Shown: positions 30,522 through 51,663, counted from the first letter of the stretch. The stretch: 64,000 nt of DNA from Alphaproteobacteria bacterium (GCA_016722515.1 JADKJE010000002.1:779682-843681), one strand, 5' to 3'. Made by a program: numbers and translations. The notes: generated from the letters alone by a model not told the origin.

Positions 30522-30528
30522 GGCTCAT

Positions 30529-32568: not shown

Positions 32569-32584
32569 CATACCGGGTACATAA
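32108..32584 (+). CDS. small PD-(D/E)xK (Mrr/restriction-endonuclease-like) protein, copy 1
   Basis: GIDVIAKKGTSRLLIETKG gives D...ExK spacing typical of the PD-(D/E)xK fold; the C-terminal tail (IPGT*) lies beyond the repeat boundary. Confidence 0.55.
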   Translation: MLSENELIDALCVYLKSYDYKIVVARTTKEKGIDVIAKKGTSRLLIETKGGTSSFNGSKRYEKTFSPSQISTRVSRGSYTAADLRSNEHQGEDKIALAFPDHPTYLKFIAKIRLVLEELDITVFLIGDDRSVKCLQGHECWRSFDVAAVDNILSIPGT

Positions 32585-34045: not shown

Positions 34046-34122
34046 TTAAATAACCCCTTTCCAAATCATTATATTACTTCAAGGGCAAAAAAATAATGTA
34101 ATATTGATCACCAAGTTCAGTT

Positions 34123-36725: not shown

Positions 36726-36813
36726 GGCCTAGATTAATATGTGTAATTAAAGTGCAAAATATACTCAGGGGTTCTTTTGAAAAATGGCATTGAATATTTA
36801 AACCATAAATAAA

Positions 36814-37401
36814 TCATCTGTATATATCCATGATACTGATAAAATCAGTATCAATATGAATTCCACTACTTTGGAGACTGCTAATATTAATTTCTAAAAC
36901 AGTCTCTTTGTGCCCATTTGAACGAATAAAGAATCCGGCAATTCCTCCATTCTTTGCAAACCCTCTAATATCACTCATCGTAAGAATGGGTTTTCCCTTA
37001 GTGCTGGCTATGACCTCATCAATATGATCATTATTACCTTCACTGACAAAAAGGATATGGCAACCATAAAATGAATCTTTATATCCGACCTTCTTAACGG
37101 TAAGAGTATAAGGACTATGTTCTTTGGATGCAGCCTTGGGGATATATTCTTCCAACGGATCTCCTCGAAACAAGCATATCGTTAAAGGTTCTTTCTTAGA
37201 AGGTAAAACGCTTGTAGGCCATACGACATAATTTAGATACTTGATGATGAGAGATGCCTTCGTTGCTGGCCAAATATTCACTTTGGCAGCCGATACTTGA
37301 GAAAATGCGTCTGAAGAGGATATTAATATAAGCAATGAACACATAAGAAGCCGTATCAATGCGTATAGAACTTGCCTGTATTCGAATAAGGTGAAACTCA
37401 C
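36814..37401 (-). CDS. YfiR-like (DUF4154) periplasmic protein, module A
   Basis: Signal peptide; YVVWP, LTICL, CHILFVS, PILTMSD...GGIAGF, LEINISSLQSSGIHID match the YfiR pattern; GTG start abuts the TBDR stop. Confidence 0.8.
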   Translation of the reverse strand: MSFTLFEYRQVLYALIRLLMCSLLILISSSDAFSQVSAAKVNIWPATKASLIIKYLNYVVWPTSVLPSKKEPLTICLFRGDPLEEYIPKAASKEHSPYTLTVKKVGYKDSFYGCHILFVSEGNNDHIDEVIASTKGKPILTMSDIRGFAKNGGIAGFFIRSNGHKETVLEINISSLQSSGIHIDTDFISIMDIYR

Positions 37402-39324
37402 TTAGAACTCCCAAACTACTTTTCCATAGATACTTCTACCTATTTCTGATGCCTTGGAATATAAGTCAGGACTAAATTCTTGATGTCGATTATCCAGTAG
37501 ATTTTGACCAGCCACGCTCAATTCTAGTCCTCGTACAGGTTTCCAGGCTAAATGCAAATCAAAGCGTGTATACGCATTAATCCCAAGGGTACGAAGATTG
37601 TCGACAAAATATAATGTTTGATCAAATTCCACATTGTGAGAGAGGTTAATACTAGATTGAATCTTGTATTGATTTTGGGGGGATGCGCCCTCATCTTTTT
37701 CATTTAGGATATCCGTACTTCCAGATTTATTATCGATATCCAGATGCAAATAGGAGTATGATCCCTGTAGATACCATAAGCCTGGTAAAACAGTCCATTG
37801 AGCTGCAACTTCAATGCCATGAGATTTTCCGGATGCTTGATTTTCAACGAGCATGTTGAGTCCACTAAATTCAAGGCTTCTCAAATCCTGATATACGTTA
37901 TAAAACGCAGAAACATCAAAAGTAAGTGAAGGAATAATTTTATTTCTATAGCCCAATTCATAAGCAGTTAGCTTTTCTGAATCATAGCCTGGTTGACCGA
38001 CCTGCCTTATGAGTCCAAAACCTGTATTGGCTACAGCAAGGTTAATTGTCCGCTCTGCACGACTCGGAATTCTTATTGCTCTTGAAATAGATGACCAGAT
38101 GGTTTGCTTTTCATCAGGAAGATAACTAAGTCGAATAGTGGGTTGTGTTTCCCAGTCAGTATAGTAATTATGCTCAAATTTTGATCCTAGGGTTAATAAC
38201 AATTTATCAGGAATAATAGACCACTGATCCTGTAGAAATACGCTGTATAAGTCATTATCAGTCTTGTCAGGGGTATAGTCAATAAACGTAACACCTGAAA
38301 CTGGAAGACTTTTTAAGTTATCTCTAAAGTAGTGATATCCCAATCCCCAAGATAATTCATGACTGGGGTTGACTGTCCACACATCTTGAAAGTCAAGATC
38401 AAAAGTTAAGTATTTTTGTTCTAAGAAAACAGAATCACGCGATGTGTAGTCAACATAAGCATTTGTCGTAATTGAATGGTTAGTCAGATTCCTTTGCCAT
38501 TTTACCATCTGGTTTGCACCAATGATTTCTTCATCACTGGTAACCGCAGTGGGTAGTGATGGAGGGTTTAACGTATAATCTTCATAACCGTTACTTATAT
38601 CACCCTGAAATGTTATTAGGTCATTGGGGCTTGCGTCCCAATCCATACGATATCCTGTTCTGCCATTTTCCCAGGTGTCATTCCCATTAGTTTTATCAGT
38701 AAAGTGACTATCATCACGGTGGTCATATTTTCCATAAACACGATAATGCAGTTTATCATTGATTCGACCGCCATGTCTAAAAGCTAAATTTCCCCTTTGC
38801 TCATTACCGTAAACAGCAGATGCAAGATTGCCTTGAGTACCTTTTGAGGAATAAGTAATAATATTTATGACACCGTTTACGGCATTTGTTCCCCAAATAG
38901 TTGCCCCGGGGCCCCTGACAACTTCAATGCGCTCAATATCTTCAATCATTAAATCTTGCATATCCCAATAAACTCCAGCAAACAAAGGGGTATAAACAGT
39001 CCTTCCATCAATGAGAACAAGCATTTTATTGACAAATTGACGATTAAATCCTCTGCTAGTAATGGCCCATTTATTGGAATCTATCTGGGCAACTTCTACT
39101 CCAGGTGCAAGTCTGAGTGCTTCTGGAACTGTGGTTATGCCAGCTCTTCTTATATCTTCTTGGGAAATAACATAAATGGCAGAAGCCGCTTGAAATGCAT
39201 TTTCAGGCTTTTTCGATAAGGTGAATACTTCATCATCTGTTACTTGAAATTGCTGTTTGATAGTCGGATCATTTGCAAATGCTATGGTAGGAGTAAGTAT
39301 ACATAGGAAAAACAATTTACGCAT
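37402..39324 (-). CDS. TonB-dependent outer-membrane receptor, module A
   Basis: Signal peptide MRKLFFLCILTPTIAFA; plug (IYVISQEDIRRAGITTVPEALRLAPGVEV...RGFN...LIDGRTVYTP); 22-strand-size barrel ending in ...YGKVVWEF. Confidence 0.9.
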   Translation of the reverse strand: MRKLFFLCILTPTIAFANDPTIKQQFQVTDDEVFTLSKKPENAFQAASAIYVISQEDIRRAGITTVPEALRLAPGVEVAQIDSNKWAITSRGFNRQFVNKMLVLIDGRTVYTPLFAGVYWDMQDLMIEDIERIEVVRGPGATIWGTNAVNGVINIITYSSKGTQGNLASAVYGNEQRGNLAFRHGGRINDKLHYRVYGKYDHRDDSHFTDKTNGNDTWENGRTGYRMDWDASPNDLITFQGDISNGYEDYTLNPPSLPTAVTSDEEIIGANQMVKWQRNLTNHSITTNAYVDYTSRDSVFLEQKYLTFDLDFQDVWTVNPSHELSWGLGYHYFRDNLKSLPVSGVTFIDYTPDKTDNDLYSVFLQDQWSIIPDKLLLTLGSKFEHNYYTDWETQPTIRLSYLPDEKQTIWSSISRAIRIPSRAERTINLAVANTGFGLIRQVGQPGYDSEKLTAYELGYRNKIIPSLTFDVSAFYNVYQDLRSLEFSGLNMLVENQASGKSHGIEVAAQWTVLPGLWYLQGSYSYLHLDIDNKSGSTDILNEKDEGASPQNQYKIQSSINLSHNVEFDQTLYFVDNLRTLGINAYTRFDLHLAWKPVRGLELSVAGQNLLDNRHQEFSPDLYSKASEIGRSIYGKVVWEF

Positions 39325-39382
39325 AAATAAACACCCCCAAAGATAACGATAGCCCCTTATATAGCATTCCCCACTTACTATA

Positions 39383-40090
39383 TTATGAAGCAACTGTTTC
39401 CTTGTCCAGGAATAATTTATCTTGAGTATTGGTATGTTCTAATAATTTTCTTTGTTGGATTCTTGTATCTTTGGGACGTATAAAAGAGATTGAGATATAG
39501 ATTCCTTGCTTATTTAGAGCTTCATAAATATGTTTTATAGGCACAGAAACGTGTTTAATTAACATATGTTCCATGCCCAGTCTTGTCCCAATTATCCTAT
39601 TTATTCGGAAAACAGGTAAGGTTGAAATCGTAAATTGAAAATAACAACCTCTCTCTAGGGCATTCATTACAAGAAGCTTATTAATGTTAAAATTGATATC
39701 AGTGTGACGGTAATTGGGGGCCACAACAGTACGACCTATTTCAAAATATCCATGTCTGTTGAGCTCAAGTTCTGGAAATAAGTCTTTTACCATAAAACCA
39801 TCTTCTTCAAGAGGCAATATACATGGGTTATTAATAAGTGAGACAACTAGTCGACTCCCGCCAATCACAATATGGCCCAGTCTGGCAATAGCTATAGTGC
39901 CTTTATTATCAAAAGCATCGCATCCACCAGAAAAATTTTTTAAACCCAAATCCTGCTTATAGCATTGTTCGCGTAGTACAAAGTATTGGTTAATGAAATC
40001 TTGATTATCGGTGATTTCAATGATGAGATCAGTCGTTTCGAGATCACGGTACGTGATCAAGGATATTTTTTTTGGGTGAGATTTCTGCAT
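39383..40090 (-). CDS. GNAT-fold N-acyltransferase, LuxI/FeeM/OlsB-like (putative N-acyl amino acid or acyl-HSL-type synthase), module A
   Basis: FVLREQCYKQDLGL...CDAFD...IGGSRLV...LPLEEDGF...YFEIGRTVVAPNYR resembles the acyl-ACP-dependent N-acyl synthase pattern (R..VF..LGW..D.FD...G..RL...P.E...E.SR.AV...R). Confidence 0.5.
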   Translation of the reverse strand: MQKSHPKKISLITYRDLETTDLIIEITDNQDFINQYFVLREQCYKQDLGLKNFSGGCDAFDNKGTIAIARLGHIVIGGSRLVVSLINNPCILPLEEDGFMVKDLFPELELNRHGYFEIGRTVVAPNYRHTDINFNINKLLVMNALERGCYFQFTISTLPVFRINRIIGTRLGMEHMLIKHVSVPIKHIYEALNKQGIYISISFIRPKDTRIQQRKLLEHTNTQDKLFLDKETVAS

Positions 40091-40294
40091 TTAGTTTCCC
40101 AATGAGAAGTAAGTAAACTCGAAGGGTATATAAACAAATATTTAAGGCTATTCAAGACATATTTAAGATAAATTAATAATTATTCAATATATGCAATATA
40201 CTATTGTATATACATTAATTATTAATATGCAATAAAGTTTGTTGTTATTTTTGTATAAATTGGTTAGGGTTGGAGGCATATTAAGGAGGGAGAG

Positions 40295-41806
40295 GTGTTT
40301 TCTAAGCTTGCTATTCGAACAAAACTTGTTGTGATGATGATGGCAATGCTTTTTGTCGCCCTATCGATTGTTTCCTTTTCATTTATTTTCTATGATCTCA
40401 GAACAACGAAATCATCAATTGTTAATGAAATAAATTTGCTTTCTACAGTCGTTGGGAAAAGATTAGCACCAGCGATTGTGCTTGGAGATGAATTTAGAAT
40501 TCATGATATAATTGAAGATGTTGCGACTAAGAGTTCTATCGTTAACGCGTGCATATATGGCGTGGAGGGCAAGCTTCTTGCAGAATTGAATGAAGGAAGA
40601 AAATATAAATGTTTCAAGAAAAATAAAGAAATAATTATGGCTGGAGATTATATATATGTTTATAAAGAAATAAAATCAAAAAATTCTATTGTTGTTGGCT
40701 ATATATTTATCATTTCGGATGAAAAAGACATAAGAGAGCATTTAATTAGGTTGATATATATTGTTTCTATTTCATTTGTATTGTTGTTAATAATATTCTA
40801 TATAGCTATAAAATATACTCAGCCTATTATTACATATCCTATTACAAGATTGGTTGAGGTTGCTGCAAAAGTTAAAGAGGGTGATTATTCGATTAGAGCG
40901 AATAAATTTAGCGAAGACGAAATGGGAACATTGGCGGACACATTCAATTCCATGCTAAACACAATACATGATCGAGATATGAATCTAAAGGATATGAACC
41001 AATCCTTAGAACAAAAAGTCCAAGAACGCACTGAAGACCTAGAATACGCTCTAAAAGTAAAAGGAGATTTCCTCTCCAACATGAGCCACGAAATCCGCAC
41101 GCCCATCCATGGTGTTCTCAGTTTCATCCGGCTTTTGGTAGAAGAATGGGATACTGCGGATGATGCCTTGCTATTCAACTATGCCCAGCGATCCCGTAAA
41201 TCCGGTGAGCGGCTGTTGCTTTTGATTAATAACCTGTTAGATATGTCTAAATTTGAGAAAGGGGCGGTACAGCTGGAGCGTAAAGAATTGCTGTTCAGTG
41301 ATCTGATTCAAACCGTTATTGCAGAAACCAGCGGAGTAGTCCAAGCAAAACATGAGAAGCTAGTGTTTCAACCCATGGCCAACGAACCATTAGTGGAAGT
41401 AGACGAGGGACGGATGGCGCAGGTGATGACCAATTTAATTGGTAATGCTGTTAAATATTCTGAGAAGGGCACCATAAGGATTTCCCAGAGTGTTAATCCA
41501 GAAGCTATTTTTCTTGAGGGGGTGGCTCAAGCACCAGGTATGATCATTTCAATATCAGACGAAGGGATTGGTATCCCTGAAGATGAATTGGTCAAAATAT
41601 TTGATAAATTCTTTGAGAGCAGCCTTACTAAAACTAAAGCCGGTGGAACAGGTTTAGGACTTGCCATCTCTAGAGAAATTGTTAAGGCGCATTTAGGTAC
41701 CATTTGGGCAGAGAATAATAAGAATGGAGTAGGAAGCACATTTACTTTCGTGTTTCCCTTAAAGGAGATTCCAGGCATCACTCAGGCCACTGAGAAGTAT
41801 GTATAG
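40295..41806 (+). CDS. sensor histidine kinase (2 TM + periplasmic CHASE8-like domain, HAMP, HisKA, HATPase_c), module A
   Basis: AGGAGG RBS + GTG; TM1 aa 12-32, TM2 about aa 150-172, HAMP (PITRLVEVAAKVKEGDYS...FNSM), H-box SHEIRTPIHG, N-box LIGNAVKY, G1 DEGIGI, G2 GGTGLGL. Confidence 0.9.
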   Translation: MFSKLAIRTKLVVMMMAMLFVALSIVSFSFIFYDLRTTKSSIVNEINLLSTVVGKRLAPAIVLGDEFRIHDIIEDVATKSSIVNACIYGVEGKLLAELNEGRKYKCFKKNKEIIMAGDYIYVYKEIKSKNSIVVGYIFIISDEKDIREHLIRLIYIVSISFVLLLIIFYIAIKYTQPIITYPITRLVEVAAKVKEGDYSIRANKFSEDEMGTLADTFNSMLNTIHDRDMNLKDMNQSLEQKVQERTEDLEYALKVKGDFLSNMSHEIRTPIHGVLSFIRLLVEEWDTADDALLFNYAQRSRKSGERLLLLINNLLDMSKFEKGAVQLERKELLFSDLIQTVIAETSGVVQAKHEKLVFQPMANEPLVEVDEGRMAQVMTNLIGNAVKYSEKGTIRISQSVNPEAIFLEGVAQAPGMIISISDEGIGIPEDELVKIFDKFFESSLTKTKAGGTGLGLAISREIVKAHLGTIWAENNKNGVGSTFTFVFPLKEIPGITQATEKYV

Positions 41807-42413: not shown

Positions 42414-42474
42414 GGCTTTTTTTACATCAGACTGTACTTTATACGCTGTTGACTCAATAGGCTGTTGTTCGTAA
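41953..42474 (+). CDS. small PD-(D/E)xK-like protein, copy 2 (ExK lysine replaced: IEAQG)
   Basis: Paralog of 32108-32584; tail after DNILS differs (AFFTSDCTLYAVDSIGCCS*). Confidence 0.5.
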   Translation: MLSENELIDALCMYLKSHDYKIVVARTTKEKGIDVIAKKGTSRLLIEAQGDPGSFKGSKRYERTFSPSQISTSVSTDLYPAADLSSHERQGEDKIALAFPNHPTYLTFIAKIRPVLDELDITVFLIGDDRSVTCLQGHECWRSFDVAAVDNILSAFFTSDCTLYAVDSIGCCS

Positions 42475-43553: not shown

Positions 43554-43623
43554 TGACGTGCTCCCCAAAAATTGGTCCACAAAAAAGTAGAGTCTGTTAA
43601 CTTTAACCTAAAAGGAGCAGACT

Positions 43624-43887
43624 ATGAAAAAGCGTTACACGGAAGATCAAATCATTCGCATACTTCATGAGCATGAAAGCGGTACTGGAACAGGAGATTT
43701 ATGCCGGAAATATGGGATAAGTTCAGCAACATTTTATAAATGGAAATCGAAGTACGGTGGGCTTGGTGTATCTGAAGCAAGCAGATTGAAGGCGCTTGAT
43801 GAAGAGAACCGTCGTTTGAAGAAGCTTTTAGCTGAGGCTGAATTAGACAAAGCGATATTGAAGGAAGCCCTGTCAAAAAAGTGGTAA
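43624..43887 (+). CDS. IS3-family transposase OrfA (HTH)
   Basis: [20 protein letters not shown]...[20 protein letters not shown]...[20 protein letters not shown] is typical IS3 OrfA. Confidence 0.9.
43875..43881 (+). promoter_or_regulatory. programmed -1 ribosomal frameshift heptamer AAAAAAG
   Basis: A6G lies in the orfA/orfB overlap, 4 nt before the orfA stop. Confidence 0.75.
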
Positions 43888-44771
43888 AGCCTGCATCTCG
43901 GCGTTTGTTGGTAGAAGATATCTGCCAAACGAAAGGTTTATCAGAGCGTCGCGTTTGCAGGCTATTAGGATTTGCTCGCAGCACCCACCGTCATAAGCGG
44001 AAGCATGATGATAGTGAGCTGCGTGCTGTCCTAAAGAAACTTGCGCACGAGCGTTGCCGTTTTGGTTACCGTCGTTTGGCTATTTTATTGAAACGAGAAG
44101 GTTATGTTATCAATTTGAAGAAAGTTTACCGATTATACCGAGAAGAAAATTTATCTGTTAAACGTCGCAAGGGCAGGAAACGCGCATTGGGAAGCCGCGT
44201 TCCCTTGCCATGCTCTCGCCGATTGCACGAAGTGTGGTCACTTGATTTTATGAGTGATGCTTTAGCAGATGGCAGAAGATTCCGTATCCTTGGGATTATG
44301 GATCACTATAGCCGCCAATGCCTTAACCTCGTTGCAGACCTGTCGATTGGGGGTCACCGCGTCGTACGTGAACTTGACGTTCTGATTAAGCGATATGGAA
44401 AGCCGGGGACAATCATCAGTGATAATGGTACAGAATTGACAAGCAAAGCGGTGTTAATGTGGGCAGAGCATCATGGGATCAAATGGCACTATATCCGTCC
44501 TGGAAAGCCTTCAGAGAATGGTTTTACAGAAAGTTTAAATGGGAGGATCAGCGATGAATGTTTAAATGAAAACTGGTTTACAAGTCTGCGGGAAGCCAGG
44601 GCAATGATTGAAGAATGGAGGCAGGATTATAACCATGTGCGCCCCCATTCCAGCCTGGGTTACCAGACACCCGCACAATTCGCCGCGATCAACACCGCAT
44701 TGGGCATGCCCAATGCGGTGTTGATCTCGAAACCAAAAGCAGTTATAAAGAACTCAAGACCCTACTTCTAA
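43881..44771 (+). CDS. IS3-family transposase OrfB (DDE integrase core)
   Basis: WSLDFMSD...[11 protein letters not shown]...[18 protein letters not shown]...[15 protein letters not shown]. Confidence 0.9.
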
Positions 44772-44807
44772 CTGGTACAACAATTGGGAGCACCTCAGGA
44801 GAAGTTT

Positions 44808-45068
44808 CTATGTATTGCTATAATTTATGAGCAGAAGACACCCGCCAAGGCAACGATTTCCTTTGTGAGCAACAAGCACATAAGTCTCTAGCTCGTAATC
44901 AATACCTTGATCAAGGGAAAGTGTCTTCTCAGTGACAGGCTTAGAAGCAAATATTCGCTTTCTTAGGTCGATATACTGTTTAATAAGATTGGCATCGTCA
45001 GTTGCTTCAAATATAATTTCCTCAGAAAGTTGTGCCTCAAATTCAGTTTTCTCTAGTCCCAATCTCAT
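44808..45068 (-). pseudogene. N-terminal fragment of a third LuxI/FeeM-like N-acyltransferase paralog, truncated at the IS3 right end
   Basis: IIFEATDDANLIKQYIDLRKRIF...YVLVAHKGNRCLGGCLLLI aligns with LIIEITDNQDFINQYFVLREQCY...IAIARLGHIVIGGSRLVV of 39383-40090. Confidence 0.6.
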
Positions 45069-45345
45069 ACCTTTCCTGGATCAACATTAAAATGTGCTTC
45101 CTATCAATCTTTCTTAAGTCAGTATCTCATGTTTATTAAATCCGTCTCATATTAGGTTAAGGAATTTGAATTCGCAAACTTTGGAGTTTCACATTTTGAA
45201 AATGTTTTTAGTCTTTAGCTATTTTTTATGTCTAAACAATTAAATCAAACATGATGGAATTATCAATTTGTTAAGAGAAAGAGTCGGTTACAAAACATTC
45301 TATGATTCGTGATGGAATGGCTACGTAATTTGACAATTTTTTAAT

Positions 45346-45372
45346 ATTGTATTAATATCTCATTAATACAAT
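45346..45372. promoter_or_regulatory. perfect 11-bp inverted repeat ATTGTATTAAT-N5-ATTAATACAAT upstream of TBDR-B
   Basis: Read directly; ends 16 nt before ATG 45389. Confidence 0.35.
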
Positions 45373-45388
45373 GGTCCGTTGAATTTGT

Positions 45389-47386
45389 ATGGGGGACATT
45401 ATGCGGTTTTCTTTTTGGGTAGGCTTTTGCGCTTGTTTAATTTTCAGTTTCCAAGCACTTGCAGCGGATGATTCAGATGAGCTTATGAAAATGGATTTAA
45501 AAGATCTTTCTTCATTGAAGGTTACTTCTGTTGGAAAAGTTGAAGAAAATGCGTTTGATGCCGCAGCTGCTATTTATGTGATAACTGAAGAAGACATTAG
45601 GAATTCCGGAGCAACTTCCGTGCCAGAATTGTTGAGAACTGTTCCTGGTGTTCAGGTTACAAGAACAGATTCAAGCCGTTGGCGTATTTCAATAAGAGGA
45701 TTTAATGAAGCTTTTACCAATAAGCTTTTGGTTCTAATCGATGGTAGAAGTGTATATACACCGCTCTTCTCTGGAGTTTATTGGGATACACAAAATGTTT
45801 TATTGGAGGATATCGCAAGAATTGAAGTTATAAGGGGGCCTGGTGGCACAATGTGGGGTGCCAACGCTGTGGCGGGGGTTATTAATATTATTCGCAAAAG
45901 CGCGTCTCAAACTCAAGGGGGATTTGTTAAGGCTTTATATGGAAATGTTGAAAGAGGAGCATTATCAGGTCGTTATGGGGGGAAAATAGGTGACAAAGGT
46001 TATTTTAAAACCTATGCAGAAACATTCGATCGTGATGAATCATTAAGGCCAGACGGAACTGGACTAAATAATGATTGGAGAGTGTCTACTGGTGGTTTTC
46101 GGATGGATTTTGATTCAATTAATAACAATCAAATCACATTTCAGGGGGATATTTATAACGGTATTAAGGATGGTGTATCTTATTTGCCCGATCTTCCCTA
46201 CCCGACAATAAACACAGTTGTAAGAGACGAAGAATTGAGTGGTGCAAATTTACTCACCCGATTTAACCATCACCATGAAGATGATTCTACAAGCCAAATT
46301 CAGGCTTATATTGATTATACCAGAAGAAATAATATCTCTTTAGATCAACGGATATATACTTTGGATTTGGATTATCAACGTTCTTGGATTGGAAATGGAA
46401 AGAATGACATTGTCGTTGGAGGGGGTGTAAGAGTTATCAAAGACTCACTTGATGAGACAGCTTACATCCGATATTCAGAAAGTAATAGAACAGATGAAAT
46501 TTTCAATGTGTTTGCTCAAGATAAAATTTCGCTTATTCCCGATAAGTTATTTGCTACATTGGGAACAAAGCTTGAATATAACCAGTATACAAATATAGAG
46601 CTTCAGCCCTCGGCCAAGATCTCATACAAACCAAAAGAAAATCAAACAGTTTGGACTTCTCTAAGTAGGTCTGTACGAACACCTTCACGAACGGAGCAAG
46701 ATGTATCCGTTATTGTTGCAGGCATTCCAGGAGGATTTGCAACATGGAATGGAAATAAAGATTTAGATAGTGAAAAGTTGATTAGTTTGGAGGGAGGATA
46801 TCGGATTAAGCCGACCAAACAAACAATGCTTGATTTCACTACTTTTGTGAATTGGTATGACAACCTTAGAACCACAGAAAAGGGAGCCGGTTTTCTTGAT
46901 ACAACTACCACATTCCCTCCGCATATAAATTTGCCATTTACTTTTGAGAATTTAGGTGCGGCTGAAGTTTTTGGAACTGAGTTATCAGGAAGTTGGAATG
47001 TAACAAAGAAGTTGAGCTTATCAGGTAGTTATAGTTATCTGCGCTTAAATTTACACCGTGATGTAGGTAGTAACGATACGTCATTTGAAAAAGCAGAGGA
47101 TCAGTCGGCACAAAATCAATTCAATCTATCTTCTGTCTATAAATTTACTCCAAGTCTTTCTATGAGCAATATATTGTCTTATGTAAGTGAGCTTAAAGGT
47201 TTTTCTGCACCTAGTTATTGGAGATTTGATACCTCAGTTAATTGGAACCCTATTGAGCATCTAGATTTCAGCCTTGTTGGACAAAATTTGCTTGATCCAT
47301 CTCATCCTGAAACGAGCGCACCGCTTTATGGTGAAGAATCCGAAATCAGAAGAAGTGTCTATGGTAAAGTAACATGGCATTTCTAA
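45389..47386 (+). CDS. TonB-dependent outer-membrane receptor, module B
   Basis: Signal peptide ...FQALAADD; plug (IYVITEEDIRNSGATSVPELLRTVPGVQV...RGFN...LIDGRSVYTP); ends ...YGKVTWHF; full-length paralog of 37402-39324. Confidence 0.9.
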   Translation: MGDIMRFSFWVGFCACLIFSFQALAADDSDELMKMDLKDLSSLKVTSVGKVEENAFDAAAAIYVITEEDIRNSGATSVPELLRTVPGVQVTRTDSSRWRISIRGFNEAFTNKLLVLIDGRSVYTPLFSGVYWDTQNVLLEDIARIEVIRGPGGTMWGANAVAGVINIIRKSASQTQGGFVKALYGNVERGALSGRYGGKIGDKGYFKTYAETFDRDESLRPDGTGLNNDWRVSTGGFRMDFDSINNNQITFQGDIYNGIKDGVSYLPDLPYPTINTVVRDEELSGANLLTRFNHHHEDDSTSQIQAYIDYTRRNNISLDQRIYTLDLDYQRSWIGNGKNDIVVGGGVRVIKDSLDETAYIRYSESNRTDEIFNVFAQDKISLIPDKLFATLGTKLEYNQYTNIELQPSAKISYKPKENQTVWTSLSRSVRTPSRTEQDVSVIVAGIPGGFATWNGNKDLDSEKLISLEGGYRIKPTKQTMLDFTTFVNWYDNLRTTEKGAGFLDTTTTFPPHINLPFTFENLGAAEVFGTELSGSWNVTKKLSLSGSYSYLRLNLHRDVGSNDTSFEKAEDQSAQNQFNLSSVYKFTPSLSMSNILSYVSELKGFSAPSYWRFDTSVNWNPIEHLDFSLVGQNLLDPSHPETSAPLYGEESEIRRSVYGKVTWHF

Positions 47387-47904
47387 GAAAAAATTTAGCT
47401 TTAATAATGATTGGTTTGGGGTTGCTAATGAGCCAATCTTATCGGGTTTTAGCAGCAGATATTTATTTTGTTAAATCGCTTTATATATATAACTTCATTA
47501 TGGCAACTGAATTTTATCCTGCCTTGAAGCATACCATAACTATTTGTACAATTGGAGATGATCATTTTGGTACAAGTTTAGATAAGGCTTCTGAGAAACT
47601 TTCATCTCGCTATGAGATAATTATCAAAAGGGGTGTATTAATCGATGATATTCCTCATTGCAATGCTTTATTTGTCGGCTCTTCTGAGGCATATCGATTA
47701 GAAAAAATCTTTTTTAAGATGGCCGATCTTCCTATTCTTTCTATTTCAGAAATTAAGGATTTCGTCAATAAGGGTGGGATAATCGAGTTCAGAGATATGA
47801 GGGATGGAAAAATAGGATTTGCTGTGAATATAAAGACAGCTAAGCAACTAAAGTTAAAGTTTGATCCTGGGCTTTTGGAGTTAGCCGTTGAAATTGTCCA
47901 TTAG
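47374..47904 (+). CDS. YfiR-like (DUF4154) periplasmic protein, module B
   Basis: Signal peptide ...YRVLAAD; ITICTIG, CNALFVGS, PILSISE...GGIIEF, FAVNIKTAKQLKLKFDPGLLELA; 13-nt overlap with TBDR-B. Confidence 0.8.
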   Translation: MAFLRKNLALIMIGLGLLMSQSYRVLAADIYFVKSLYIYNFIMATEFYPALKHTITICTIGDDHFGTSLDKASEKLSSRYEIIIKRGVLIDDIPHCNALFVGSSEAYRLEKIFFKMADLPILSISEIKDFVNKGGIIEFRDMRDGKIGFAVNIKTAKQLKLKFDPGLLELAVEIVH

Positions 47905-48493
47905 ATGAGTTAGTGACATCTTTTAAACAGAGCATCACTAGGTTCTTTTTATATCGAGTGTTTAAAAAATCATTTTTAAAAGGATAGTTAAAGCAATTTA
48001 TATCTAGTCCTAGTTTTTTTATTGATCTTCTGTAATTTATAGTGTGAATTTTAGATGATTTAGCAAATATACTTGATATATTATTGTCTAGGCTCCGAAT
48101 TATTATATAGCGAAATAGATCGGCTACTAATCCTTGTTTTCTAAATTCAGGCAGTACAGCGAGTCTTGATATCTCAGAGTAAGCATGGTATTGTAAATCA
48201 GGTATAAAAGTTGAAAGTGGAAAATTTTCATTTTCTAGGGGGATAAGATTCTTATTTTTTGGATATGATGTTGTAATTCTGGCTCCGCCAACACATACTC
48301 CATTCGATAGAATTATTAAGAAGTCACTTTGGAAATCAAATTCGTCAGGATCAACTTCAGGAAGGTTAATATTGCGTATATGCATTTCATTTCTATAAAC
48401 ATTTTTAACAATATCATAATAATCTTTGATGACGTGAACGTCCGTGGAGAACGAAAATTGCAAAGACCCTAGCGTGTTTTGAGAGACTAACAT
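47840..48493 (-). CDS. GNAT-fold N-acyltransferase, LuxI/FeeM/OlsB-like, module B
   Basis: DEFDFQSDFLIIL...VGGARIT...IPLENENF...YSEISRLAVLPEFRKQGL; 3' end overlaps the YfiR-like gene's 3' end by 65 nt. Confidence 0.5.
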   Translation of the reverse strand: MLVSQNTLGSLQFSFSTDVHVIKDYYDIVKNVYRNEMHIRNINLPEVDPDEFDFQSDFLIILSNGVCVGGARITTSYPKNKNLIPLENENFPLSTFIPDLQYHAYSEISRLAVLPEFRKQGLVADLFRYIIIRSLDNNISSIFAKSSKIHTINYRRSIKKLGLDINCFNYPFKNDFLNTRYKKNLVMLCLKDVTNSSNGQFQRLTPKAQDQTLTLVA

Positions 48494-48556
48494 TTGTTCC
48501 TCCTGCCCAGTTTAGTTGATGAGTATAGTTAAAATAGCTAGTTTGGAAACAAGATT

Positions 48557-50080
48557 ATGAATGGTTATATCAAGAACTTAATTGGAAATAAATCGCTCAG
48601 ATCAAAATTGCTTATACTCTCACTGGGATCATGTGGAAGCATTATCATGGTACTATATGTAGCATTCGTTATAACAACCTATTTTGACTCAAGAAACGGT
48701 TTATCACATGAATTAAAACTTCTAGCTCAACTGGTTGGAAACAGAAACGCCGTCTTGATGAGCTTTCAAGATTATGATGAAATCAGAAAAAATCTTAAGA
48801 TTTTTGATGTTAAAAAAGATGTTATAGCTTCTTGTATTTATTCAAAGAATCAAGAGTTGGTTGTGTCCTTAATTAAGGATGGGAATCCATTTTCTTGTAG
48901 TCCTTATGCGACAAAAAATTGGAATTACCTGACTGTTAACGAAGATATAGAACTAAATAATGTAATCTTAGGTAAAATAATTATTTATGCAAAAACAAAT
49001 TATATAATAAAAGATCTTATAATTCGCTTAACATATGCATCTGGTATATTTATAATAATATCAATAATTGTTATTTTGTTTTCTTATAAAATTCAAACAT
49101 TTATCTCAATCCCGATTGATAATTTAATAAATATAACTTCTTCAATTAAGACGGGGAATTATAATATACGTGCGAAAAAATTATATGAAGACGAAATTGG
49201 GATTTTGACAGAATCGTTTAATTCAATGTTGACCACAATTCATGAGAGGGATTTAAATCTAAAGGAAATGAACCAATCGTTAGAACAAAAAGTTCAAGAA
49301 CGCACCGAGGATCTAGAATACGCTCTCAAAGTCAAAGAAGACTTCCTCTCGAATATGAGCCACGAAATTCGCACTCCTATTCATGGAGTAATTAGTTTTG
49401 TGCGCCTTTTGGTCGAAGAATGGAATACCTCAGATGATGATATACTGTTTAATTATGCTCAGCGTGCTCATAAATCGAGTGATCGGCTTTTGGCTTTGAT
49501 TAATAACCTGTTAGATATGTCTAAATTTGAGAAAGGGGCGGTACAGCTGGAGCGTAAAGAATTGCTGTTCAGTGATCTGATTCAAACCGTTATTGCAGAA
49601 ACCAGCGGAGTAGTCGAGGCAAAACATGAGAAGCTAGTGTTTCAACCCATGGCCAACGAACCATTAGTGGAAGTAGACGAGGGACGGATGGCGCAGGTGA
49701 TGACCAATTTAATTGGTAATGCTGTTAAATATTCTGAGAAGGGCACCATAAGGATTTCCCAGAGTGTCAATCCAGAAGCTATTTTTCTTGATGGGGGTGG
49801 CTCAAGCACCAGGTATGATCATTTCAATATCAGACGAAGGATTGGTATCCCTGAAGATGAATTGGTCAAAATATTTGATAAATTCTTTGAGAGCAGCCTT
49901 ACTAAAACTAAAGCCGGTGGAACAGGTTTAGGACTTGCCATCTCTAGAGAAATTGTTAAGGCGCATTTAGGTACCATTTGGGCGGAGAATAATAAGAATG
50001 GAGTAGGAAGCACATTTACTTTCGTGTTTCCCTTAAAGGAGATTCCAGGCATCACTCAGGCCACTGAGAAGTATGTATAG
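48557..50080 (+). CDS. sensor histidine kinase, module B (G1 ATP-lid box disrupted by a compensated frameshift)
   Basis: Same architecture as 40295-41806; the sensor half is highly diverged and the 3' half near-identical; residues FLDGGGSSTRYDHFNIRRRIGI replace FLEGVAQAPGMIISISDEGIGI. Confidence 0.85.
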   Translation: MNGYIKNLIGNKSLRSKLLILSLGSCGSIIMVLYVAFVITTYFDSRNGLSHELKLLAQLVGNRNAVLMSFQDYDEIRKNLKIFDVKKDVIASCIYSKNQELVVSLIKDGNPFSCSPYATKNWNYLTVNEDIELNNVILGKIIIYAKTNYIIKDLIIRLTYASGIFIIISIIVILFSYKIQTFISIPIDNLINITSSIKTGNYNIRAKKLYEDEIGILTESFNSMLTTIHERDLNLKEMNQSLEQKVQERTEDLEYALKVKEDFLSNMSHEIRTPIHGVISFVRLLVEEWNTSDDDILFNYAQRAHKSSDRLLALINNLLDMSKFEKGAVQLERKELLFSDLIQTVIAETSGVVEAKHEKLVFQPMANEPLVEVDEGRMAQVMTNLIGNAVKYSEKGTIRISQSVNPEAIFLDGGGSSTRYDHFNIRRRIGIPEDELVKIFDKFFESSLTKTKAGGTGLGLAISREIVKAHLGTIWAENNKNGVGSTFTFVFPLKEIPGITQATEKYV

Positions 50081-50769
50081 GAAGCGGTTATAAAGTGTAA
50101 ACGTTAATCAGCCAAGAAGTGCATAACGTTGACTGAGGCATAGCGGATACAGAAACCATCGTCAATGACAGGCTGTACAGTTCCAATGATGGCATCTACC
50201 CAGCTGGTCTGCCAAGCCATGTGCAGGCGTGGGTAACAATATCTTTTTGTTTACATAAGATTGTGTTTGAGGTCATAATCCAAGTGCACATTATTATGGG
50301 GGGGATAAATGCTTAGCGAAAATGAATTAATAGATGCACTATGCATGTATCTAAAAAGCCATGATTATAAAATTGTGGTAGCTCGCACAACGAAAGAGAA
50401 GGGAATCGACGTGATTGCTAAAAAGGGGACTAGCCGACTTTTAATCGAAGCCCAAGGTGACCCCGGCTCTTTTAAGGGTAGTAAGCGATATGAAAGAACG
50501 TTTAGTCCTTCTCAGATTTCAACAAGCGTTTCCACAGATTTATATCCCGCGGCTGATTTAAGCAGTCACGAGCGCCAAGGCGAAGATAAAATTGCTCTAG
50601 CATTTCCAAATCATCCTACCTATCTTACGTTTATAGCCAAAATCAGGCCGGTATTGGATGAGCTTGATATTACGGTCTTTCTTATCGGTGATGATCGATC
50701 TGTCACGTGTTTGCAAGGTCATGAATGTTGGAGATCATTTGATGTTGCCGCTGTTGATAACATCTTGTC
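49495..50769 (+). repeat. near-identical segmental repeat, copy B (kinase 3' half + cassette copy 3)
   Basis: See 41221-42413; contains an extra 81-bp block at 50190-50270. Confidence 0.9.
50268..50769 (+). repeat. 0.5-kb cassette, copy 3, G7 tract at 50298-50304
   Basis: Same boundaries; the right boundary abuts an IS30 IRL. Confidence 0.9.
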
Positions 50770-50800
50770 GGCCTGCTCTAAAATGAAGTGCAACACCTAA
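50309..50800 (+). CDS. small PD-(D/E)xK-like protein, copy 3 (IEAQG); tail encoded by the IS30 IRL
   Basis: Identical to copy 2 up to DNILS, then ACSKMKCNT* read from GGCCTGCTCTAAAATGAAGTGCAAC. Confidence 0.5.
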   Translation: MLSENELIDALCMYLKSHDYKIVVARTTKEKGIDVIAKKGTSRLLIEAQGDPGSFKGSKRYERTFSPSQISTSVSTDLYPAADLSSHERQGEDKIALAFPNHPTYLTFIAKIRPVLDELDITVFLIGDDRSVTCLQGHECWRSFDVAAVDNILSACSKMKCNT

Positions 50801-50885
50801 TGATGTTTGTTGTTAAAGACAAGGATATCAAGCTCCAGGAATGTGTTATGGAACACATGCAGAACCATTTCTGGACACCTGAGCA
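50770..50885 (+). mobile_element. internally deleted IS30-family fragment (IRL + internal piece)
   Basis: GGCCTGCTCTAAAATGAAGTGCAACACCTAATGATGTTTGTTGT, then DKDIKLQECVMEHMQNHFWTPEQ (equals 34410-34475 of the full copy). Confidence 0.8.
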
Positions 50886-51005
50886 ATTCGCCGCGATCAA
50901 CACCACATTGGGCATGCCCAATGCGGTGTTGATCGCGAAACCAAAAGCAGTTATAAGAAACTCAGGACTCTACTTCTAACTGGTACAACATTTGGGAGCA
51001 CCTCA
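50886..51005 (+). mobile_element. IS3-family right-end remnant (120 bp)
   Basis: ttcgccgcgatcaacacc...ctggtacaacatttgggagcacctca matches 44678-44797. Confidence 0.85.
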
Positions 51006-51057
51006 GAACTTAGAAAAGTGGATTGCGCAGATGTGGCTGATTTAATGGAGGTATAAG

Positions 51058-51663
51058 ATGGTATTGGAAAATAAGCTGAACATCACCAACCAAGTTGAAC
51101 TTGGCAGAGCTGAGGAAAAAATCAGCAAGCAAAAAGCCAAACAGCTTTTTGATACTGAGGAAATCAACAAGATTGAGGTCGGGACATTTGCAGGGCTGGC
51201 GCAGATTCATAGAATCCTATTTGAAGATATTTATGATTTTGCAGGCAAAATCCGTGAGGTGAATATCGCCAAGGGCAATTTCCGCTTCGCTCCGCTGATG
51301 TATTTGAAGCCGTCGCTGGAACATATCGACGCAATGGCGCAAGGCAGCTTTGATGAAATTATTGAAAAATATGTTGAGATGAACATTGCCCATCCCTTCA
51401 GAGAGGGCAATGGACGCGCAACGCGCATCTGGCTTGATGTTATACTGAAAGCAAACATCCAAAAAGTGATTGATTGGAATCTGGTGGATAAGGAAGCATA
51501 CTTATCCGCCATGGAACGCAGCGTGGTGAAGGACGTTGAAATTAAGCAACTTCTTGGAGCTGCGCTCACCGATAAAATTCATGACCGCGAAACCTTCATG
51601 AAAGGCATTGACGTCAGCTATTACTATGAGGGCTATAGCGAATTCAAAACCAAGGATTTGTAA
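51058..51663 (+). CDS. fic: Fic-domain protein (AMPylase family), class III-like with a C-terminal inhibitory motif
   Basis: HPFREGNGRATR Fic motif; C-terminal SYYYEG fits (S/T)xxxE(G/N); 201 aa single-domain. Confidence 0.85.
   Translation: MVLENKLNITNQVELGRAEEKISKQKAKQLFDTEEINKIEVGTFAGLAQIHRILFEDIYDFAGKIREVNIAKGNFRFAPLMYLKPSLEHIDAMAQGSFDEIIEKYVEMNIAHPFREGNGRATRIWLDVILKANIQKVIDWNLVDKEAYLSAMERSVVKDVEIKQLLGAALTDKIHDRETFMKGIDVSYYYEGYSEFKTKDL

What the first reader, a model, noticed from the sequence alone, without database searches (positions are those of the whole stretch)
44808..50080. Module B: a second, rearranged and strongly diverged copy of the same four-gene set, plus a third acyltransferase stub
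TBDR-B (45389-47386) and YfiR-like-B (47374-47904) overlap by 13 nt on the plus strand. Acyltransferase-B (47840-48493) is convergent, and its 3' end overlaps the YfiR-like 3' end by 65 nt. Kinase-B (48557-50080) is divergent from it across only 63 bp. A third acyltransferase paralog (44808-45068, N-terminal 86 codons) sits divergently upstream of TBDR-B and is cut at the IS3 right end. Every A/B pair aligns end to end but is heavily diverged in the ligand-facing parts: TBDR loops, YfiR-like proteins, kinase sensor domains and acyltransferases. Wholesale duplication of a synthase/receptor/sensor set followed by divergence is what would be expected for paralogous signal-receptor specificities. 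It argues that the four genes form one functional unit.
Basis: seen in the sequence. Interest (0 to 1): 0.8.

Follow-up and report, generated by a model that had tools for sequence, protein, structure and literature searches.

The report
Second acyl-synthase/receptor/kinase signalling cassette
This stretch holds a second, very old copy of a four-gene set (a LuxI/FeeM-like acyltransferase, an outer-membrane TonB-dependent receptor, a YfiR-like periplasmic protein and a sensor kinase) that recurs as a unit in unrelated bacteria and looks like an undescribed self-made-signal sensing system.

Summary
An independent short-read contig matches 44768-49339 at 100%.

TBDR, YfiR-like protein and CHASE8-type sensor form a trio that NCBIfam already models (NF053590/91/92), and about 60 of 80 related metagenome loci show it in that order. 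The acyltransferase is the unusual addition. It belongs to an unmodelled LuxI/FeeM-like GNAT clade. It sits beside the receptor in five further loci, and three of those (two lacking the acyltransferase gene) hold 2 of the 80 TBDR-seeded loci. Both the A and the B gene orders occur elsewhere.

Modules A and B are not a recent duplication. TBDR is 42% identical, YfiR 24-28% and the acyltransferases 23%. Each is no closer to its partner than to foreign homologues.

The kinases are the exception. They are mosaics: the sensor is 29% identical, the DHp region about 90% at protein level with dS about 1.3, and the last 700 bp plus a repeated downstream ORF about 99% at DNA level. I read this as gene conversion.

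Kinase B carries a compensated +1/-1 frameshift that erases the ATP-binding G1 box. The third acyltransferase was already dead before IS3 cut it. The proposed mechanism, a YfiBNR-like relay fed by a self-made acyl signal, is inferred.

The parts
43554..44797 (+). IS3-family insertion sequence: orfA 43624-43887, orfB 43881-44771, imperfect terminal repeats TGACGTGCTCCC / TGAGGTGCTCCC. It truncates the third acyltransferase.
   Evidence: Pfam HTH_Tnp_1, rve and rve_3. Ends read from the sequence. The right end is fixed by where L097 identity stops.
44798..45068 (-). Acyl-C, the dead remnant of a third LuxI/FeeM-like acyltransferase. It comprises 86 codons, an in-frame TAG (44808-44810) and 3 more homologous codons up to the IS3 junction.
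   Evidence: 100% identical to L097, which carries the full 204-codon gene with the same TAG. The full allele also lacks conserved residues: GGxR becomes GGCL and E-x-S-R becomes Y-C-G-H.
45389..47386 (+). TBDR-B, a TonB-dependent outer-membrane receptor of the TOL_0244-like family.
   Evidence: Plug plus barrel. NF053590 scores 601 bits against a cut-off of 645. N-terminal signal-like segment. Clusters with the other acyl-linked TBDRs.
47374..47904 (+). YfiR-like-B, a periplasmic DUF4154 protein. Its start overlaps the end of TBDR-B by 13 nt.
   Evidence: PF13689 at E 1e-25. NF053591 scores 66 bits against a cut-off of 125. Hits solved YfiR 4YN7/5Y61 at E 1.4e-3 with both Cys positions aligned.
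47840..48493 (-). Acyl-B, a cytoplasmic LuxI/FeeM-like GNAT N-acyltransferase. It is convergent with YfiR-B, and its non-conserved, low-confidence tail supplies the 65-nt overlap.
   Evidence: Pfam Acetyltransf_5 and weak FeeM. Family of 628 representatives. Profile hits to the AHL synthases BjaI, MesI, RpaI and LasI. AF2 model with pLDDT 84; the best full-length fold matches are BjaI, LasI, TofI, EsaI and FeeM. No hydrophobic segment.
48494..48556 (.). 63-bp divergent intergenic region between acyl-B and kinase-B.
   Evidence: Coordinates. The same divergent acyl/kinase arrangement occurs in module A (204 bp), L034 (90 bp) and L007 (280 bp). The promoter scan is not above chance.
48557..50080 (+). 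Kinase-B: two TM helices around a periplasmic domain of about 120 aa (CHASE8-like), then HAMP, HisKA and HATPase_c.
   Evidence: NF053592 (YfiR-like-associated sensor domain) scores 105 bits against a cut-off of 194.
49792..49838 (+). Out-of-frame patch in kinase-B. A +1 T at 49792 and a -1 G after 49838, relative to kinase-A, turn GVAQAPGMIISISDEG into GGGSSTRYDHFNIRRR and remove the G1 box (DEGIGI).
   Evidence: DNA and protein alignments. L007 and kinase-A keep ADEGIGIPEDE.
49497..50772 (+). Tract nearly identical to module A (41223-42416), apart from 4 substitutions, the two 1-nt indels and an insert of about 72 bp in B. It covers the kinase catalytic domain, the stop codon and the downstream repeated ORF.
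50309..50800 (+). Repeated ORF of unknown family. Other copies lie at 41953-42474 and 32108-32584. This copy is cut by an IS30-like terminal repeat at 50767.
   Evidence: No Pfam, NCBIfam or PDB match.
50767..51006 (.). Patch of IS debris: an IS30-like end, a 76-nt IS30-like fragment and an IS3 right-end fragment (92% identical to 44666-44798). It closes module B on the right.
36814..41806 (.). Module A, used for comparison: YfiR-A 36814-37401(-), TBDR-A 37402-39393(-) with a likely ATG start at 39321, acyl-A 39383-40090(-), kinase-A 40295-41806(+).

Best explanation
Module B is a second, anciently diverged member of a conserved signalling cassette.

Core. The core is the trio that NCBIfam models as TOL_0244 TBDR, TOL_0243 YfiR-like protein and a YfiR-associated sensor. 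It parallels YfiBNR. A periplasmic YfiR-like protein is paired with an inner-membrane sensor whose periplasmic domain is of the YfiN (CHASE8) type. A TonB-dependent receptor takes the outer-membrane place of YfiB, and a histidine kinase replaces the diguanylate cyclase.

Addition. A small sub-clade of these cassettes, including A and B, has gained a cytoplasmic LuxI/FeeM-like N-acyltransferase. In these loci the gene is co-transcribed with, or sits beside, the receptor, and the kinase has moved to a divergent position next to it.

Inferred mechanism:
1. The acyltransferase makes an N-acylated small molecule.
2. The dedicated TBDR binds or imports it.
3. This changes the hold of the YfiR-like protein on the kinase's periplasmic domain.
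4. The kinase signals to an unlinked response regulator.

Relation between A and B. They differ in every part that could read a ligand. They share an almost identical transmitter because gene conversion, seeded by a repeated ORF just downstream, has homogenised the 3' halves. If both are active, they would feed the same regulator.

Signs of decay in module B:
- Kinase-B's G1 box is destroyed by a compensated frameshift.
- Acyl-B lacks a 90%-conserved Arg.
- Acyl-C is a pseudogene that was later cut by IS3.

Shown: family assignments, synteny across genomes, mosaic kinase structure, pseudogene status of acyl-C. Inferred: the chemistry of the product, the ligand-receptor link and the direction of signalling.
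For: Families: the top NCBIfam models for the three proteins are NF053590, NF053591 and NF053592. DUF4154 and weak CHASE8 with HAMP-HisKA-HATPase_c. YfiR-B hits solved YfiR.

Topology: signal-like N-termini on the TBDR and YfiR, two TM helices in the kinases, none in the acyltransferases.

YfiBNR logic and the reclassification of YfiN's periplasmic domain as CHASE8: PMC4655355 and PMC8085984.

Canonical order: TBDR, then YfiR, then sensor in about 60 of 80 metagenome loci. Tandem duplicated trios occur in L091 and L095; L064 and L074 carry extra TBDR copies.

Acyl linkage:
- L006 and L007 were found by an acyl-specific DNA motif, and both have the TBDR immediately downstream.
- L034 has kinase(-), then acyl(+), TBDR(+), YfiR(+).
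- L049 has TBDR(+), YfiR(+), acyl(-).
- L098 has acyl, acyl, TBDR.
- The six acyl-linked TBDRs lie within a split of 8 of 88 taxa. No set of 6 random taxa out of 200 did as well, and the four full-length ones stay within 10 taxa or fewer in 91 of 100 bootstraps.

Enzyme: the family has 628 representatives. PDB profile hits are to BjaI (E 1.2e-5), MesI, RpaI and LasI, with the R / D..D / GGxR / E-x-S/T-R motifs aligned. Fold matches have TM 0.55-0.64 to AHL synthases and FeeM. Of 45 members, 40 give weak FeeM hits and 35 weak exosort_acyl hits.

Mosaic kinases: sensor 29% identical. DHp codons 230-309 give dN 0.08 and dS 1.3. From 41223/49497 onward the DNA is about 99% identical through the stop codon into the repeated ORF.

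Acyl-C.
Against: - No experiment on any member of the trio or the acyl clade was found in the searchable literature.
- All three trio proteins score below NCBIfam's curated cut-offs.
- Neither acyltransferase reaches the Pfam thresholds for FeeM or Autoind_synth.
- No response regulator lies near either kinase. The only REC ORF in the window is at 3597-4391.
- Only 2 of 80 TBDR-seeded loci carry the acyl gene, so the trio works without it in most organisms.
- L049 has no kinase within 7 kb of its acyl gene.
- The acyl-first sample is small: five foreign loci.
- The TBDR has no N-terminal signalling extension that would obviously reach a periplasmic partner.
- The two indels in kinase-B lie in a repeat where long-read MAG polishing is weakest, so they may be errors.
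Confidence: 0.5

Rival explanations
1. One reading: a recent duplication of the whole four-gene set inside this genome, followed by fast, selection-driven divergence of the ligand-facing parts.
For: - The two sets lie 8 kb apart in one genome and hold the same four families.
- The kinase sensor domains are reciprocal best hits, though by a hair: 100 against 99.8 bits.
- TBDR-A and TBDR-B are sisters in 25 of 100 NJ bootstraps.
- dS in the DHp region is about 1.3, below full saturation.
Against: - Acyl-A is 47% identical to L098 but 23% to acyl-B.
- The YfiR pair ranks 55th-56th of about 67 for each other, and the TBDR pair 15th-17th of 86.
- TBDR-A groups with L006, and TBDR-B with L034, L049 and L081.
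- Both gene orders exist independently elsewhere.
- L034 sits beside a TrwC relaxase, which shows the cassette moves horizontally.
- The high identity in the kinase 3' halves continues into non-coding DNA and a neighbouring repeat, which marks it as conversion rather than shared recent ancestry of whole modules.
Confidence: 0.15
2. The acyltransferase is an envelope-lipid enzyme, for example an OlsB-like aminolipid N-acyltransferase. Its expression would be coupled to a YfiR-type envelope-stress sensor. In that case it is an output or a co-regulated function, not a signal synthase.
For: - Pfam Acetyltransf_5, the best Pfam hit, is a generic long-chain N-acyltransferase family.
- One family member weakly hits an OlsB model.
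- YfiBNR responds to envelope state (PMC4655355).
- Most trios lack the acyl gene.
Against: - The best sequence-profile and full-length fold matches are AHL synthases and FeeM, not OlsB.
- No OlsA-like partner was noted among the neighbours scanned.
- The acyl gene is co-inherited specifically with one TBDR sub-clade.
- Tandem or multiple diverged acyl paralogues per receptor (L098; acyl-B plus acyl-C) fit diversified ligands better than a housekeeping lipid step.
Confidence: 0.2
3. Module B is a decaying, non-functional relic in an IS-rich island. Its tight spacing and overlaps then carry no regulatory meaning.
For: - The compensated frameshift removes kinase-B's G1 box.
- Acyl-B has Val at the 90%-conserved Arg column.
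- Acyl-C is dead.
- The module is bracketed by IS3 and IS30 debris and is AT-richer than its flanks.
- The 65-nt convergent overlap is not conserved in L049.
Against: - All four long ORFs are intact.
- The second indel restores the frame, which suggests continuing selection on the kinase C-terminus.
- The TBDR-YfiR start/stop overlap is typical of the family.
- The indels lie in a repeat where MAG polishing errors are likely.
Confidence: 0.2

Closest known systems
NCBIfam trio NF053590 (TOL_0244 family TonB-dependent receptor), NF053591 (TOL_0243 family YfiR-like periplasmic protein) and NF053592 (sensor histidine kinase, YfiR-like protein-associated)
   Same: These are the best-scoring NCBIfam models for the three proteins of both modules. 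The same TBDR-to-YfiR coupling occurs in about 60 of 80 related loci.
   Different: All scores fall below the curated cut-offs: 601-621 against 645, 66-69 against 125, 105-133 against 194. The kinase is not downstream of YfiR but divergent from an inserted acyltransferase gene. The acyltransferase is not part of the described trio.
YfiBNR (TpbB) tripartite system of Pseudomonas aeruginosa and HmsCDE of Yersinia
   Same: A DUF4154/YfiR periplasmic protein, with direct similarity to solved YfiR including both Cys positions. It is paired with an inner-membrane sensor built as TM, periplasmic CHASE8-type domain, TM, HAMP. An outer-membrane third partner is present.
   Different: The outer-membrane partner is a 22-strand TonB-dependent receptor rather than the OmpA/Pal-like lipoprotein YfiB. 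The output is HisKA/HATPase_c rather than GGDEF. An acyltransferase is added.
LuxI-type acyl-homoserine-lactone synthases (BjaI, LasI, EsaI, TofI, MesI, RpaI)
   Same: Best full-length fold matches (TM 0.55-0.64) and the only significant PDB profile hits, with the R, D..D, GGxR and E-x-S/T-R motifs aligned. The genetic logic is synthase next to its presumed receptor.
   Different: No Pfam Autoind_synth hit for A, B or C. No LuxR-type receptor gene is adjacent. The conserved Trp of LuxI enzymes is not conserved in the profile consensus. The product is unknown.
FeeM-type N-acyl amino acid synthases, and the PEP-CTERM/exosortase-associated acyltransferase TIGR03694
   Same: Weak but consistent family-wide hits: 40 of 45 members to FeeM and 35 of 45 to TIGR03694. 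Fold match to FeeM structure 2G0B.
   Different: Scores are well below the cut-offs: 19.8 against 27 and 26 against 112. The genomic partners differ, being TBDR, YfiR and HK rather than fee clusters or exosortase loci.
Parallel quorum-sensing channels converging on one phosphorelay (Vibrio harveyi LuxN/LuxQ/CqsS to LuxU). This comparison rests on my own knowledge, not on a tool result.
   Same: Two sensors have unrelated input domains but near-identical transmitter domains (89% aa). That would let two signals feed one regulator.
   Different: No shared regulator has been identified. One kinase may be catalytically dead. The similarity here arises from gene conversion.

Membership tests
TOL_0244 / TOL_0243 / YfiR-associated HK trio (NCBIfam NF053590-92) | Each protein scores above the curated NCBIfam cut-off. 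| tested here: not met
   TBDR-A/B score 621/601 against 645. YfiR-A/B score 69/66 against 125. HK-A/B score 133/105 against 194. All three are nonetheless the top or family-specific hit.
TOL_0244 / TOL_0243 / YfiR-associated HK trio (NCBIfam NF053590-92) | Co-directional gene order TBDR, then YfiR-like, then sensor. | tested here: not met
   The TBDR-to-YfiR step is kept, with a 13-nt overlap. The kinase is separated by a convergent (B) or upstream (A) acyl gene and is transcribed divergently from it. The canonical order is seen in about 60 of 80 related loci.
YfiBNR-type tripartite signalling | Periplasmic DUF4154/YfiR protein. | tested here: met
   PF13689 scores 85 and 90 bits against a cut-off of 24.9. 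phmmer hit to solved YfiR at E 1.4e-3. Signal-like N-terminus.
YfiBNR-type tripartite signalling | Inner-membrane partner with a CHASE8 (YfiN-type) periplasmic domain and HAMP. | tested here: inconclusive
   CHASE8 scores 25.5 and 19.8 bits against a cut-off of 27. HAMP is above its cut-off. Two TM helices flank about 120 aa.
YfiBNR-type tripartite signalling | OmpA/Pal-like lipoprotein YfiB and a GGDEF output. | tested here: not met
   No such gene is in either module. The outer-membrane partner is a TBDR and the output is HisKA plus HATPase_c.
LuxI-type AHL synthase (Pfam PF00765) | Match to the Autoind_synth model. | tested here: not met
   No hit at E <= 0.01 for acyl-A, acyl-B or acyl-C. 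Only 4 of 45 family members give weak hits.
LuxI-type AHL synthase (Pfam PF00765) | LuxI fold and conserved N-terminal R/D/D/R and E-x-S/T-R residues. | tested here: inconclusive
   Fold TM is 0.55-0.64 to BjaI, LasI, TofI and EsaI. The motifs align in profile hits to BjaI and MesI. Acyl-B has Val at the first Arg column and acyl-A has Gly at the Ser column.
LuxI-type AHL synthase (Pfam PF00765) | Makes an acyl-homoserine lactone from SAM and acyl-ACP or acyl-CoA. | not testable with these tools
   Needs enzymology or metabolite analysis.
FeeM-type N-acyl amino acid synthase (PF21926) | Match above the Pfam gathering score. | tested here: not met
   Acyl-B scores 19.8 bits against 27, and acyl-A has no hit. 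40 of 45 relatives hit weakly.
IS3 family insertion sequence | Overlapping orfA (HTH_Tnp_1) and orfB (rve), with TG...CA terminal inverted repeats. | tested here: met
   Pfam hits. The ends TGACGTGCTCCC... and ...GGGAGCACCTCA were read. No convincing target duplication was found, and the 3' part of the interrupted gene is absent from the window.

The most novel reading that the evidence does not exclude
The acyl-linked cassettes are a previously unrecognised kind of cell-to-cell signalling system. A LuxI/FeeM-like synthase makes an acylated autoinducer. That signal is not read by a cytoplasmic LuxR. It is captured by a dedicated TonB-dependent outer-membrane receptor and relayed through a YfiR-like periplasmic protein to a CHASE8 histidine kinase. 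This genome would run two such channels with different signal and receptor specificities. Their kinases are kept on the same downstream regulator by concerted evolution of the transmitter domain.
Probability: 0.27. Interest if true: 0.85.

Novelty: new variant of a known kind. Interest (0 to 1): 0.6.

Why it matters
The TBDR / YfiR-like / sensor trio is common in environmental bacteria, with more than 500 hits in one metagenome scan, yet I found no experimental work on it. The acyl-linked variant offers a handle on what the trio senses. If the neighbouring enzyme makes the ligand, expressing it gives the signal molecule directly. The receptor, the periplasmic adaptor and the kinase can then be tested against it.

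This would also extend TonB-dependent receptors from nutrient uptake and FecA-type sigma signalling to a YfiR-mediated two-component relay. It would add a LuxR-independent way of reading LuxI-like products. The two modules here, with unrelated inputs but a converted, shared transmitter, are a natural experiment in how signalling channels are kept insulated at the input and merged at the output.

Tried and rejected
- The search for homologous proteins with acyl-B, and with a 45-sequence profile, returned only the window's own proteins plus P0003 and P0151. Wider context sampling by that route failed.
- The search for related loci with acyl alignments failed twice for lack of a conserved stretch. 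A third attempt, on metagenomes, confirmed no hit.
- tblastn of acyl-A and the L049 acyl protein against plasmids gave no match.
- Of 15 hits to the degenerate acyl motif in genomes, 13 were chance matches.
- The promoter and terminator scan of 44700-50400 found no more sites than shuffled sequence.
- I first read GGAGA on both IS3 flanks as a target-site duplication. I rejected that because the uninterrupted allele L097 continues with sequence that is absent from the window.
- The SAM-methyltransferase after L034's module and the one at window 51781-52536 are only 26% identical, so I did not count it as a fifth component.
- Exact-product look-ups of kinase-A, kinase-B and acyl-A found nothing on record, so the frameshift could not be checked independently.
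- Literature searches for the trio, or for the acyl/TBDR combination, found nothing relevant.

Full report
OBSERVATION

The ORF map matches the finding exactly:
- Stub at 44808-45068(-).
- TBDR-B at 45389-47386(+).
- YfiR-like-B at 47374-47904(+), with a 13-nt overlap.
- Acyl-B at 47840-48493(-), with a 65-nt convergent overlap.
- Kinase-B at 48557-50080(+), across a 63-bp divergent gap.

Module A lies at 36814-41806 in the order YfiR(-), TBDR(-), acyl(-), kinase(+). Pfam and NCBIfam confirm the four families in both modules. An independent short-read contig (L001, Logan SRR11673995) is 100% identical to window 44768-49339. The tight spacing, the overlaps and the stub are therefore not MAG assembly artefacts. 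The source is an 858-kb contig of a MAG labelled Alphaproteobacteria bacterium.

PAIRWISE RELATIONS

| Pair | Identity | E-value |
|---|---|---|
| TBDR-A / TBDR-B | 42% over 659 aa | 4e-177 |
| YfiR-A / YfiR-B | 28% over 103 aa | 4e-13 |
| Acyl-A / acyl-B | 23% over 128 aa | 1e-12 |
| Kinase-A / kinase-B | 61% over 500 aa | 0.0 |

Paralogy is not in doubt.

The kinase figure hides a mosaic:
- The TM-periplasmic-TM-HAMP part is 29% identical.
- Codons 230-309 (DHp) are about 90% identical in protein but heavily diverged at synonymous sites (dN 0.08, dS about 1.3).
- From 41223/49497 onward the DNA is about 99% identical, with 4 substitutions and 2 one-base indels in about 700 bp.

This last tract runs through the stop codon and across non-coding DNA. 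B carries an extra 72 bp or so there. The tract then continues into a 173-codon ORF of unknown family (41953-42474 and 50309-50800, 99.8% identical). That ORF has a third copy at 32108-32584 (92%).

High identity that ignores the gene boundary and ends in a dispersed repeat is the signature of gene conversion or recombination seeded in that repeat. It is not evidence for the age of the modules. The intermediate DHp zone fits either an older conversion or strong selection to keep the same partner specificity.

Inside the 99% tract, kinase-B has a +1 T at 49792 and a -1 G after 49838. The 47-nt out-of-frame patch replaces GVAQAPGMIISISDEG with GGGSSTRYDHFNIRRR. This removes the DxGxG G1 box, which kinase-A and the L007 homologue keep. 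I could not verify the indels independently. They lie in a repeat where polishing is unreliable, so their reality is open.

THE THIRD ACYLTRANSFERASE

The 86-codon stub is too diverged to hit acyl-A or acyl-B by tblastn. It does match other family members at E 1e-12.

The decisive evidence is contig L097 (GCA_020049755.1). It is 100% identical to window 45092-44798 and then continues with 114 more codons of a clear family member (P0151, 204 aa; 36% identity and E 5e-35 to P0139). Identity ends exactly at the IS3 right end.

The in-frame TAG at codon 87 (window 44808-44810) is present in L097 as well. The full allele has also lost conserved residues: GGxR is GGCL, and E-x-S-R is Y-C-G-H. Acyl-C was therefore already a pseudogene when the IS3 element (43554-44797) cut it. 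The 3' part of the gene is nowhere in the window, so the insertion was accompanied by a deletion or rearrangement.

Module B is closed on its right side by IS30-like and IS3 fragments at 50767-51006.

WHAT THE CASSETTE IS

The best NCBIfam models for the three non-enzyme proteins are a curated set:
- NF053590, TOL_0244 family TonB-dependent receptor.
- NF053591, TOL_0243 family YfiR-like periplasmic protein.
- NF053592, sensor histidine kinase, YfiR-like protein-associated.

All scores are somewhat below the cut-offs.

A metagenome scan seeded with the TBDRs returned more than 500 relatives. About 60 of the 80 best loci show the co-directional order TBDR, then YfiR, then CHASE8-type sensor. 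Tandem duplicated trios occur in L091 and L095, and L064 and L074 carry extra TBDR copies. The trio is thus a known and common neighbourhood, and having more than one copy per genome is ordinary.

YfiR-B matches solved P. aeruginosa YfiR directly, with both Cys positions aligned. YfiR binds the periplasmic domain of YfiN, a domain since reclassified as CHASE8, and is sequestered at the outer membrane by YfiB (PMC4655355, PMC8085984).

Hydropathy fits the expected placement. The TBDR and YfiR-like proteins have signal-like N-termini. The kinases have two TM helices around a loop of about 120 residues. The acyltransferases have no hydrophobic segment.

THE ACYLTRANSFERASE

A full HMMER scan found 628 cluster representatives, 368 of them at E <= 1e-10. 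They share a distinctive consensus: QYYxLRE...FSGxEDxYD...GGARL...LPLE...F...FPEL...YxExSRxAVLPxxR.

No curated model covers this family. Members give only sub-threshold hits to FeeM (40 of 45), Acetyltransf_5 (39 of 45), TIGR03694 (35 of 45) and, rarely, Autoind_synth or TraI.

A profile search of the PDB hits only LuxI-type AHL synthases at significant E-values: BjaI at 1.2e-5 and MesI at 7e-5, then RpaI and LasI. The hallmark R, D..D, GGxR and E-x-S/T-R positions align. An AlphaFold2 model of acyl-B (pLDDT 84) finds its best full-length fold matches in BjaI, LasI, TofI, EsaI and FeeM, at TM 0.55-0.64.

It is therefore a LuxI/FeeM-like N-acyltransferase outside the defined families. Its product cannot be named from sequence.

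IS THE FOUR-GENE SET A UNIT?

An acyl-specific DNA motif found two true hits among genomes of 185,579 species, and both have the TBDR immediately downstream:
- L006, an Alphaproteobacteria MAG.
- L007, a Rickettsiales MAG. It also has a divergent kinase, followed by two REC proteins.

Among the 80 TBDR-seeded loci, two carry the acyl gene:
- L034 has kinase(-), then acyl(+), TBDR(+), YfiR(+). This is the module-A order, and it sits next to TrwC relaxase and NikA genes.
- L049 has TBDR(+), YfiR(+), acyl(-). This is the module-B order, with no overlap and no kinase nearby.

The closest relative of acyl-A (P0003, 47% identical) sits on L098 as acyl, acyl, TBDR.

In an NJ tree of 88 TBDRs, the six acyl-linked receptors fall inside a split of 8 taxa. 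None of 200 random six-taxon sets came within 10 taxa. The four full-length acyl-linked TBDRs stay within 10 taxa or fewer in 91 of 100 bootstraps.

The acyl gene has thus been co-inherited with one sub-clade of the receptor. It is usually operonic with the receptor, and the kinase has moved next to it. This supports a functional unit, although the sample is small.

DUPLICATION OR OLD PARALOGUES?

Outside the kinase 3' half, A and B are not each other's nearest relatives:
- Acyl-A is 47% identical to L098 against 23% to acyl-B. Acyl-A, acyl-B and acyl-C are 23-30% identical to one another, the same range as to foreign loci.
- YfiR-A and YfiR-B rank 55th-56th of about 67 for each other. The TBDRs rank 15th-17th of 86. 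The kinase sensors are reciprocal best hits only by 0.2 bits.
- TBDR-A tends to pair with L006. TBDR-B tends to pair with L034, L049 and L081. A and B are sisters in 25% of bootstraps.
- Synonymous sites are saturated.

The modules are therefore ancient paralogues or separate acquisitions from within the acyl-linked sub-clade. They were later tied together by conversion of the transmitter.

MECHANISM (INFERRED)

By analogy with YfiBNR, the YfiR-like protein would hold the kinase's CHASE8-type loop in one state. The TBDR would take YfiB's role as the outer-membrane input. The neighbouring enzyme would supply the acylated ligand that the TBDR binds or imports. YfiR has a periplasmic-binding-protein-like fold (PMC4655355), so it might also bind the imported ligand itself.

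The near-identical DHp and catalytic halves imply that both kinases address the same unlinked regulator. The only REC ORF in the window is at 3597-4391.

Rival readings are set out in the report sections: a lipid-modifying enzyme under envelope-stress control, a decaying relic, and a recent duplication.

NOVELTY

The trio is curated but, as far as the searchable literature shows, uncharacterised. I found no description of the acyl-linked form. I rate this a new variant of a known kind, with moderately high interest. The value lies in the cassette as a testable candidate signalling system, more than in the duplication itself.

Noticed in passing
window 32108-32584, 41953-42474, 50309-50800: A 158-173-codon ORF with no Pfam, NCBIfam or PDB match is present three times (92-99.8% DNA identity). 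It sits directly 3' of both kinases. The 50.3-kb copy is cut by an IS30-like terminal repeat. It looks like the homology that seeds conversion between the kinases.
   Followed up: partly
window 30429-30522, 30990-31082, 34120-34170, 50767-50817; also 34411-34486 / 50818-50893: There are several copies of an IS30-like terminal repeat (GGCCTGTTCTAAAATGAAGTGCAACACC), and a 76-nt fragment of the IS at 34300-35079. The whole 30-51 kb region is an IS-riddled island.
   Followed up: no
window 50874-51006: A fragment of the IS3 right end, 92% identical to 44666-44798 and in the same orientation. Module B is therefore bracketed by two IS3 right ends.
   Followed up: no
window 31314-31967, 33503-34045, 35629-35985, 51058-51663, 55442-57685: The neighbours are DUF1963, an Imm70-like protein, an Imm8 immunity protein, a Fic/DOC protein and a 747-aa ankyrin-repeat protein. 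This gene content is reminiscent of host-associated or toxin-immunity islands.
   Followed up: no
L097 (GCA_020049755.1, JAHZTO011239260.1) 25-639: The public 204-aa product P0151 was called straight through an in-frame TAG, so the locus does not translate to it under table 11. Either a different genetic code was used for that assembly or the stop was ignored.
   Followed up: partly
L034 3700-7155: The four-gene cassette, plus a SAM-methyltransferase, lies beside a TrwC relaxase and a NikA-like gene. That places it on a conjugative or mobilisable element.
   Followed up: partly
L098 191-1994: Two tandem, 55%-identical acyltransferase paralogues precede the TBDR. Multiple synthase genes per receptor therefore recur outside this window.
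   Followed up: partly
L007 3773-5416: The kinase of the Rickettsiales cassette is followed by two receiver proteins: REC with a weak HATPase_c_2-like region, and REC-DnaJ. They are candidate outputs that are missing next to the window's kinases.
   Followed up: no
window 36000-42000 and 46000-50000: Both modules are AT-richer (34-37% GC) than the surrounding DNA (40-44% GC).
   Followed up: no
window 37402-39393: The listed TTG start of TBDR-A overlaps acyl-A by 11 nt. The signal-peptide-like sequence begins at the ATG at 39321, which is the more likely start.
   Followed up: no
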